A stretch of DNA of 64,000 bases from the IMG/VR virus record IMGVR_UViG_3300017991_000051, positions 105,253-169,252 of that record. One strand, written 5' to 3'. Below are positions 44,117 through 44,402 of this stretch, one piece after another (positions within the stretch are counted from its first letter, which is position 1; each line of letters starts with the position of its first letter). The notes beneath the pieces are model-generated. The model saw nothing but the letters and a program-made list of their open reading frames with translations. It was not told where the DNA came from and ran no database searches. This stretch comes from a virus. A program made the position numbers and the translations under genes.

Positions 44117-44327
44117 TACACTCGGTTCTCACTATGCATCCAACTCATGTCGTCGTTCTGGGCATCGTTCTCGGTTAGGTTCACACGGTCGCCTCGGGGG
44201 CAACACCTACTCGGCGGTTTGTACGGTTATTGTGGGTATCATAGACACGATGACTCGCACTAGCTCATCGGGTAACAACTACAAAGCGGCTCGTACACTC
44301 CCGACGGGTATTATTCAAATCACGACT
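44114..44327 (-). ncRNA. TIGR-like dual-repeat guide array, block 1 (6 units)
   Basis: Loop repeats at 44124, 44160, 44198, 44234, 44270 and 44306; same consensus as block 2. Confidence 0.82.
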
Positions 44328-44402
44328 GGTGGAGGCAGAGGGATTCGAACCCACGGCCCCAAGCTTGCAAAGCTCGTGCTCTACCAACTGAGCTATGCCC
44401 CC
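44327..44402 (-). tRNA. trnA: tRNA-Ala(UGC)
   Basis: Anticodon loop TTTGCAA, G3:U70 pair, encoded CCA. Confidence 0.95.

What the first reader, a model, noticed from the sequence alone, without database searches (positions are those of the whole stretch)
44306..44402. Array begins exactly on the CCA end of tRNA-Ala
Seen: the minus strand reads ...CTCCACC-A-GTCG-TGATTTGAA-TAATACCCG. The terminal A of the tRNA CCA (44327) is also the first base of the first edge half-repeat (AGTCG). A hairpin at 42733-42757 closes the far end, and tRNA-Ile lies one gene downstream. Inference: tRNA 3' processing could generate the 5' end of the guide precursor (tRNA as leader), or the tRNA 3' end was the integration site of the array module.
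Basis: partly seen in the sequence, partly recalled or inferred. Interest (0 to 1): 0.7.

Follow-up and report, generated by a model that had tools for sequence, protein, structure and literature searches.

The report
Phage guide array fused to tRNA
A large uncultured phage writes its array of small DNA-targeting guide RNAs (TIGR) directly onto the end of a tRNA gene, sharing one base; the same one-base sharing occurs at stop codons in about a fifth of related arrays, so it is mostly a habit of promoterless arrays packed against the gene upstream, with tRNA trimming probably opening the guide precursor as a by-product.

Summary
The junction is real. A76 of an intact tRNA-Ala(UGC) (44327, minus strand) is the invariant first base of unit 1 of a 24-unit dual-repeat TIGR array in a complete 169-kb phage. 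The tasA gene lies about 24 kb away and keeps the Tyr/His guide-processing dyad. The integration reading fails: the tRNA end is not duplicated and no tyrosine integrase was found. The leader reading is only partly supported. No promoter is detectable, so co-transcription is likely. But the overlap is not tRNA-specific: the second block shares the AG of a stop codon, and 22 of 114 other TIGR arrays take their first A from a stop codon (none from a tRNA). One base cannot end the tRNA and also start a full 36-nt guide, and unit 1 has a broken loop pair. tRNA fusion does recur once: an apparently unrelated 245-kb phage has about 28 units right after a tRNA, with its tas 75 kb away. The far-end hairpin has no U-tract and overlaps a promoter-like site. 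Earlier scan notes report tRNA-adjacent stem-loop TIGR arrays on other DNA (not checked here). The closest precedent is archaeal tRNA–C/D sRNA dicistrons. New variant of a known kind; no RNA data.

The parts
44393..44584 (-). Small ORF (63 aa, two CxxC motifs) whose stop codon lies inside the first 10 nt of tRNA-Ala; shows the tRNA sits inside a packed operon
   Evidence: (gene call with the same stop, 54 aa)
44327..44402 (-). tRNA-Ala(UGC), intact, CCA encoded, G3:U70
44327..44327 (-). Shared base: A76 of the tRNA and invariant first A of tigRNA unit 1
44292..44327 (-). TIGR unit 1 (36 nt): half-edge, spacer A, loop, spacer B, half-edge. Edge 2-bp helix intact; only unit with A instead of G at loop position 2, which breaks the loop box D/box C pair
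44110..44327 (-). TIGR block 1, 6 units; unit 6 (44145-44110) overlaps the start codon and first 7 nt of the phosphoesterase gene
43421..44116 (-). Calcineurin-like metallophosphoesterase (PF00149, E 1e-13), 231 aa; common phage family whose sampled homologues sit among tRNAs without arrays
42774..43422 (-). TIGR block 2, 18 units; first half-edge shares the AG of the phosphoesterase TAG stop; ends in a 3'-truncated edge
42733..42768 (-). 8-9 bp hairpin (42757-42733) without U-tract, overlapping a sigma-70-like promoter match (42768-42740, 10/12)
42265..42338 (-). tRNA-Ile(UAU), no encoded CCA; its upstream ORF (42718-42329) also stops 10 nt inside the tRNA
40808..40835 (-). Intrinsic terminator (11-bp stem plus T run), likely end of the transcription unit

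Best explanation
This is a promoterless dual-repeat TIGR array, a satellite of a tasA gene about 24 kb away. It has filled the gene junctions of a tRNA-rich, tightly packed phage operon. SHOWN: array anatomy, unit boundaries, tas gene with Tyr/His dyad, zero or negative gaps to the flanking genes, and the same overlap at stop codons in other arrays. INFERRED: tRNA-Ala, both blocks and the phosphoesterase are one transcript. Host tRNA 3' processing (RNase E or Z type, at or 1-3 nt after CCA) frees a complete tRNA and opens the 5' end of the guide precursor as a by-product. Tas then cuts at each full internal edge (G|A) to release units 2 onward. Unit 1 comes out 1-3 nt short and with a mispaired loop, so it is probably a weak or dispensable guide. 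The one-base overlap is the tightest packing an A-starting array can reach against an A-ending gene, CCA and TAA/TGA/TAG alike.
For: Block 2 shares AG with a stop codon, and unit 6 overlaps a start codon. The first A is shared with a stop codon in 14/67 and 8/47 held-out arrays; no other single offset has more than 3. Local binomial p about 2e-11, not corrected for shared ancestry; 23 such genes fall into 11 unrelated protein groups. The phage's other tRNAs are equally flush: ribosome-binding sites at +1/+2 after CCA for Asn and Asp, and upstream stops 10 nt inside tRNA-Ala, -Ile and -Pro. Tas Y317/H324 align with SpTasH Y289/H296, the autonomous processing residues (PMC13421893). [quoted passage not shown] No promoter above shuffle level. 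Phosphoesterase homologues lie among tRNAs with no arrays, which suggests the units arrived later.
Against: A second phage has an array directly after a tRNA, and this phage's VIPR-type array lies about 75-110 nt after its tmRNA; both hint at a preference for tRNA-like hosts. Tas processing was reported to need full edge repeats, so unit 1 may depend on an outside cut. The sharp +1/+2 peak could reflect how arrays are seeded rather than packing.
Confidence: 0.6

Rival explanations
1. Selected tRNA-leader design, as in plant and archaeal tRNA-C/D RNA dicistrons. Arrays that have moved away from tas are kept behind tRNA genes because tRNA 3' cleavage supplies the precursor's 5' end and high expression.
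For: Independent second case: IMGVR_UViG_3300017971_000001 (245 kb, complete) has about 28 units starting with array-like sequence right after the discriminator of the last tRNA of a cluster, a terminator at the end, and tas about 75 kb away with no array beside it. The VIPR-type array of this phage follows its promoter-bearing tmRNA. Precedent: PMC3491384 and PMC7994747. Engineered tRNA-tigRNA arrays work in yeast (10.64898/2026.07.30.739390).
Against: Rare: 0/114 surveyed arrays and 0/41 arrays next to tas homologues start at a tRNA. Whole-collection scans gave one true hit. The two junctions differ: 1-nt overlap here, versus a full edge 5 nt after a CCA-less tRNA there. That phage's tas has an in-frame TAG. 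The yeast tRNA arrays were slower than plain TIGR arrays. Blocks 2 and 3 of this phage have no tRNA in front.
Confidence: 0.22
2. The shared A is a true Tas cut site. Tas cleaves between C75 and A76, giving a full 36-nt guide and a tRNA ending in CC, which is healed (perhaps by the embedded phosphoesterase) and completed by the host CCA-adding enzyme. At stop codons the same cut would clip the stop from the upstream mRNA, often tas itself.
For: Unit covariation puts the unit boundary immediately 5' of this A. The A is invariant. tRNA-Ile, -Gly and -Pro lack CCA, so CCA addition is needed anyway. 12 of 23 stop-overlap genes are tas.
Against: The base 5' of the boundary is G in 25/26 units but C here. 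Processing needed full edges in E. coli. A cyclic-phosphate end (inferred chemistry) would block CCA addition without healing. The phosphoesterase family shows no link to arrays in the five homologue loci checked.
Confidence: 0.1
3. The array has its own promoter at or inside unit 1 and is independent of the tRNA.
For: A weak 8/12 match with its -35 in the acceptor stem and -10 in unit 1 (44338); it would explain the odd loop base of unit 1.
Against: 12 such matches in 3.8 kb; not called at the standard threshold, where hits equal the shuffle mean. A start there would skip unit 1.
Confidence: 0.05
4. The tRNA 3' end was the attachment site of an integrated array module.
For: tRNA 3' ends are common integration sites (general knowledge); the junction is exact.
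Against: No duplicate of the tRNA end of 12 nt or more in the complete genome; no PF00589 integrase (serine recombinases not searched); the enclosed gene belongs to the native tRNA neighbourhood; the same geometry occurs at stop codons.
Confidence: 0.03

Closest known systems
Dual-repeat TIGR-TasA systems (FpTIGR; SpTIGR-TasH; TaTIGR-TasR; Faure et al. 2025, PMC12045711; PMC13421893)
   Same: 36-nt units with alternating edge and loop repeats, box D/box C motifs, covarying extra edge pair, 5'- and 3'-truncated end repeats; Nop-only Tas with the Tyr/His processing dyad.
   Different: Arrays are far from tas (about 24 kb and about 13 kb) and split into three blocks. One starts on a tRNA's CCA. 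There is no intrinsic terminator at the array end. The edge pair varies unit by unit inside one array. Tas has an insertion of about 105 aa. tRNA adjacency is not mentioned in Faure et al. or the TIGRFinder preprint.
Dicistronic tRNA-box C/D sRNA genes and ORF-overlapping C/D sRNAs of archaea and plants (PMC3491384; PMC7994747)
   Same: A Nop-domain-bound box C/D guide placed directly after a tRNA; promoterless guides overlapping the upstream stop codon (25% of archaeal C/D sRNA genes).
   Different: Here the guides are DNA-targeting and arrayed, in a virus with bacterial-type tmRNA and ribosome-binding sites, and processed by their own protein. The tRNA encodes CCA and shares its last base with the guide, so an RNase Z cut after the discriminator is not the simple solution it is in Nanoarchaeum.
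Elements integrated at tRNA 3' ends (prophages, islands)
   Same: Exact junction at a tRNA 3' end.
   Different: No duplicated core, no tyrosine integrase, no bounded cargo.

Membership tests
Dual-repeat TIGR-Tas | Two alternating 8-12 nt repeats with about 9-nt variable spacers, 36-nt period | tested here: met
   24 units in the window, 22 of exactly 36 nt
Dual-repeat TIGR-Tas | Box D/box C motifs and covarying edge pairs across each unit | tested here: met
   22/26 units with both pairs; 0 of 100,000 shuffles
Dual-repeat TIGR-Tas | [quoted passage not shown] | tested here: met
   44327 and 43422 starts; 44110 and 42774 ends
Dual-repeat TIGR-Tas | Nop-domain Tas protein encoded | tested here: met
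   Genome 4005-5045 (-): hits PDB 9mty (E 6e-7) and TasH 21kl (E 3e-6); most homologue loci carry 36-nt arrays with similar repeats
Dual-repeat TIGR-Tas | tas adjacent to the array | tested here: not met
   tas is about 24 kb from this array and about 13 kb from a 3-unit block; no array beside it. Pairing of this Tas with these arrays is inferred from it being the only Tas-motif hit in the genome
Dual-repeat TIGR-Tas | Tyr/His processing dyad | tested here: met
   Y317/H324 align with SpTasH Y289/H296
Dual-repeat TIGR-Tas | Intrinsic terminator after the array (typical) | tested here: not met
   Hairpin lacks a U-tract and is not called
Dual-repeat TIGR-Tas | 36-nt guides are made and direct DNA binding | not testable with these tools
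Dicistronic tRNA-guide RNA gene | Guide immediately 3' of an intact tRNA, no own promoter | tested here: met
   promoter absence rests on consensus scans only
Dicistronic tRNA-guide RNA gene | tRNA 3' cleavage generates the mature guide 5' end | not testable with these tools
   Geometry conflicts: the shared A cannot be in both products
tRNA-integrated element | Duplicated tRNA 3' end (attL/attR core) | tested here: not met
tRNA-integrated element | Integrase gene | tested here: not met
   PF00589 absent from the complete genome; serine recombinases not searched

The most novel reading that the evidence does not exclude
The shared A is a functional cut site. Tas itself cleaves C75|A76, so a phage RNA-guided effector takes part in maturing a tRNA (tRNA-CC repaired by healing and CCA addition). 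The frequent overlap of first guides with stop codons, half of them the tas stop codon, would then be a built-in feedback that clips the stop from the upstream mRNA.
Probability: 0.1. Interest if true: 0.75.

Novelty: new variant of a known kind. Interest (0 to 1): 0.45.

Why it matters
How the first guide of a TIGR array gets its 5' end, and how arrays arise and spread, are stated open questions (PMC12045711 Discussion; 10.64898/2026.09.09.750476). This locus offers a clean test: one base is claimed by both a tRNA and a guide, so end-mapping shows which enzyme cuts. The survey adds a regularity I did not find in the papers searched: about one in five dual-repeat arrays borrows its first A from the upstream stop codon. 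This mirrors archaeal C/D sRNA genes and strengthens the TIGR-snoRNA parallel. Unit-by-unit covariation suggests whole 36-nt modules are the unit of gain or change. Arrays far from tas would be missed by tas-anchored finders. The practical value is modest, since tRNA-tigRNA fusions have already been engineered.

Tried and rejected
Pfam PF02371 and PF01798 missed the Tas; it was found by motif and PDB search. No close relative of the phage was found, so the empty site could not be seen. Exact CCA-plus-unit patterns: 9 and 0 hits in IMG/VR, 6 in metagenomes, none continuing as an array. These patterns were narrow and missed edges that start with A. The relaxed pattern gave 1 true hit of 3 viral hits and 0 of 28 genome hits; it needs a canonical T-loop and an exact 36-nt period, so tRNA-fused arrays are undercounted. 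The tRNA-Ile call overlapping a repeat in L046 is an artefact in coding sequence. L157 has a gene between tRNA and array. The hairpin arm as a repeated operator motif was rejected: other copies are in coding sequence. A phosphoesterase-array association was rejected. Spacer targets: none. The Mol Cell TasH paper and the plant dicistron paper are not held, so the exact Tas cut chemistry and which end it cuts are inferred.

Full report
Setting. The window is the last 64 kb of a complete 169,252-base virus record with direct terminal repeats. Most long ORFs, all tRNA genes and the tmRNA lie on the minus strand.

The observation. tRNA-Ala(UGC) spans 44402-44327 with an encoded CCA. Downstream, two 8-nt repeats alternate every 18 nt. 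Parsed as 36-nt units there are six from 44327 to 44110 and eighteen from 43422 to 42774; three more lie near genome position 17,900. The register places the first half-edge on 44327-44324, so the last A of the tRNA is the first base of unit 1. That base is A in all units. Bases 2-3 of each unit pair with bases 2-3 of its own closing half-edge in 22 of 26 units; shuffles give 9 on average and never 22 in 100,000, and pairing the two halves of one DNA edge works in only 6 of 23. The unit boundary therefore lies just 5' of the invariant A, and unit 1 passes the test. It is, however, the only unit with A at loop position 2, which breaks the box D/box C pair described by Faure et al..

The far end. 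The hairpin at 42757-42733 exists but has no U-tract, is not called as a terminator, and overlaps the best promoter-like match of the region (42768-42740). A strong terminator sits at 40835-40808. Between the upstream genes and the array nothing exceeds shuffle level; a weak 8/12 match inside unit 1 is one of twelve in 3.8 kb.

The protein. A 347-aa ORF at genome 4005-5045, about 24 kb upstream round the circle, matches PDB 9mty and TasH. It aligns from its N-terminus with 227-310 aa homologues and has no extra N-terminal nuclease domain. Its homologues sit beside 36-nt arrays with related repeats. Y317 and H324 align with SpTasH Y289 and H296, which process the precursor without host help. 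That it serves these arrays is inferred.

Is the junction special? Inside this phage, no. Unit 6 overlaps the first 7 nt of the phosphoesterase gene, and unit 7 shares the AG of its stop codon. tRNA-Asn and tRNA-Asp are followed by ribosome-binding sites at +1 and +2, and tRNA-Ala, -Ile and -Pro have upstream stop codons 10 nt inside them. Across other viruses, the first A of the array is supplied by a stop codon in 14 of 67 arrays and in 8 of 47 held-out arrays, while no other offset has more than three. The 23 genes checked fall into 11 unrelated groups, 12 of them tas. The tRNA junction has exactly this geometry. Archaeal C/D sRNA genes behave alike: a quarter carry the upstream stop codon and some follow tRNAs directly.

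Does tRNA adjacency recur? Rarely. None of 114 surveyed arrays and none of 41 arrays beside tas homologues starts at a tRNA, though few of those loci hold tRNAs. A T-loop-plus-array scan found one true case, a complete 245-kb phage. There, a loop-like remnant follows the discriminator base of a CCA-less tRNA, a full edge starts 5 nt later, and about 28 units run to a clear terminator. Its tas is 75 kb away, has no array beside it, keeps Tyr/His and carries an in-frame TAG at a conserved Trp. Only the tRNA resembles our phage at DNA level in the regions compared. In our phage a VIPR-type array also begins about 75-110 nt after the tmRNA. Two cases and a hint do not prove enrichment.

Integration. 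No copy of the last 12 nt of the tRNA exists elsewhere in the genome, no tyrosine integrase is found, and homologues of the enclosed phosphoesterase lie among tRNAs without arrays. The units most likely entered existing gene junctions.

Mechanism. Shown: anatomy, boundaries, flush packing, Tas dyad. Inferred: one long transcript; host cleavage at or 1-3 nt after CCA (E. coli pathways, PMC5291269 and PMC2190699 abstracts; the host here is unknown) frees the tRNA and opens the precursor; Tas cuts the full internal edges. Unit 1 would then lack its invariant A, which with its loop defect suggests a weak guide (0.6). A selected tRNA-leader design (0.22) and a Tas cut between C75 and A76 with CCA repair (0.1) remain open; the phage encodes no CCA enzyme but three of its tRNAs need one. 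An internal promoter (0.05) and att-type integration (0.03) are unlikely.

Novelty. The system is a dual-repeat TIGR-TasA with dispersed arrays; it fails the usual adjacency and terminator features but meets the sequence-defining ones. The TIGR papers searched do not mention natural tRNA fusion. Earlier scan notes mention tRNA-adjacent stem-loop arrays and an array starting at a stop codon; I did not check them and do not count them as support. No RNA evidence was obtainable. Verdict: real, partly reinterpreted, new variant of a known kind, interest 0.45.

Noticed in passing
L001:7540-8885 (-), genome coordinates: VIPR-type (GGY-NN pentamer) array beginning about 75-110 nt after the tmRNA 3' end (8961). 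The tmRNA has a promoter-like site just upstream. The candidate vipr gene and tas lie in the same gene cluster, so the phage appears to carry two RNA-guided systems.
   Followed up: partly
G000 about 17,970-17,860 (-): Third TIGR block of 3 units, 22 nt after a stop codon and ending 4 nt before the next start codon.
   Followed up: yes
L108-L227 (IMG/VR loci): The first A of dual-repeat arrays is shared with the upstream stop codon in 22/114 arrays; others start inside the coding end, some using the loop repeat as the stop codon.
   Followed up: yes
window 42774-44327: The 2-bp edge helix differs from unit to unit yet stays paired within each unit, suggesting that whole 36-nt modules are gained or exchanged.
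   Followed up: partly
L067:4040-5680; L098: 245-kb phage with a cluster of odd tRNA-like genes, a tRNA-fused array of about 28 units, and a distant tas with an in-frame TAG (assembly error or decay not resolved).
   Followed up: partly
P0001 residues about 122-226: Insertion of about 105 aa in this TasA, absent from its closest homologues.
   Followed up: no
G000 60147-60218 (-): tRNA-like gene with encoded CCA and an unassigned anticodon.
   Followed up: no
window 40675 and genome 9340 (-): The same 11-nt near-palindrome lies just after tRNA-Trp and inside the tmRNA promoter-like site; possible operator.
   Followed up: no
window 56159-56425: 18-nt tandem repeat, 14.8 copies, inside a 238-aa ORF; coding hexapeptide repeat, not a guide array.
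   Followed up: no
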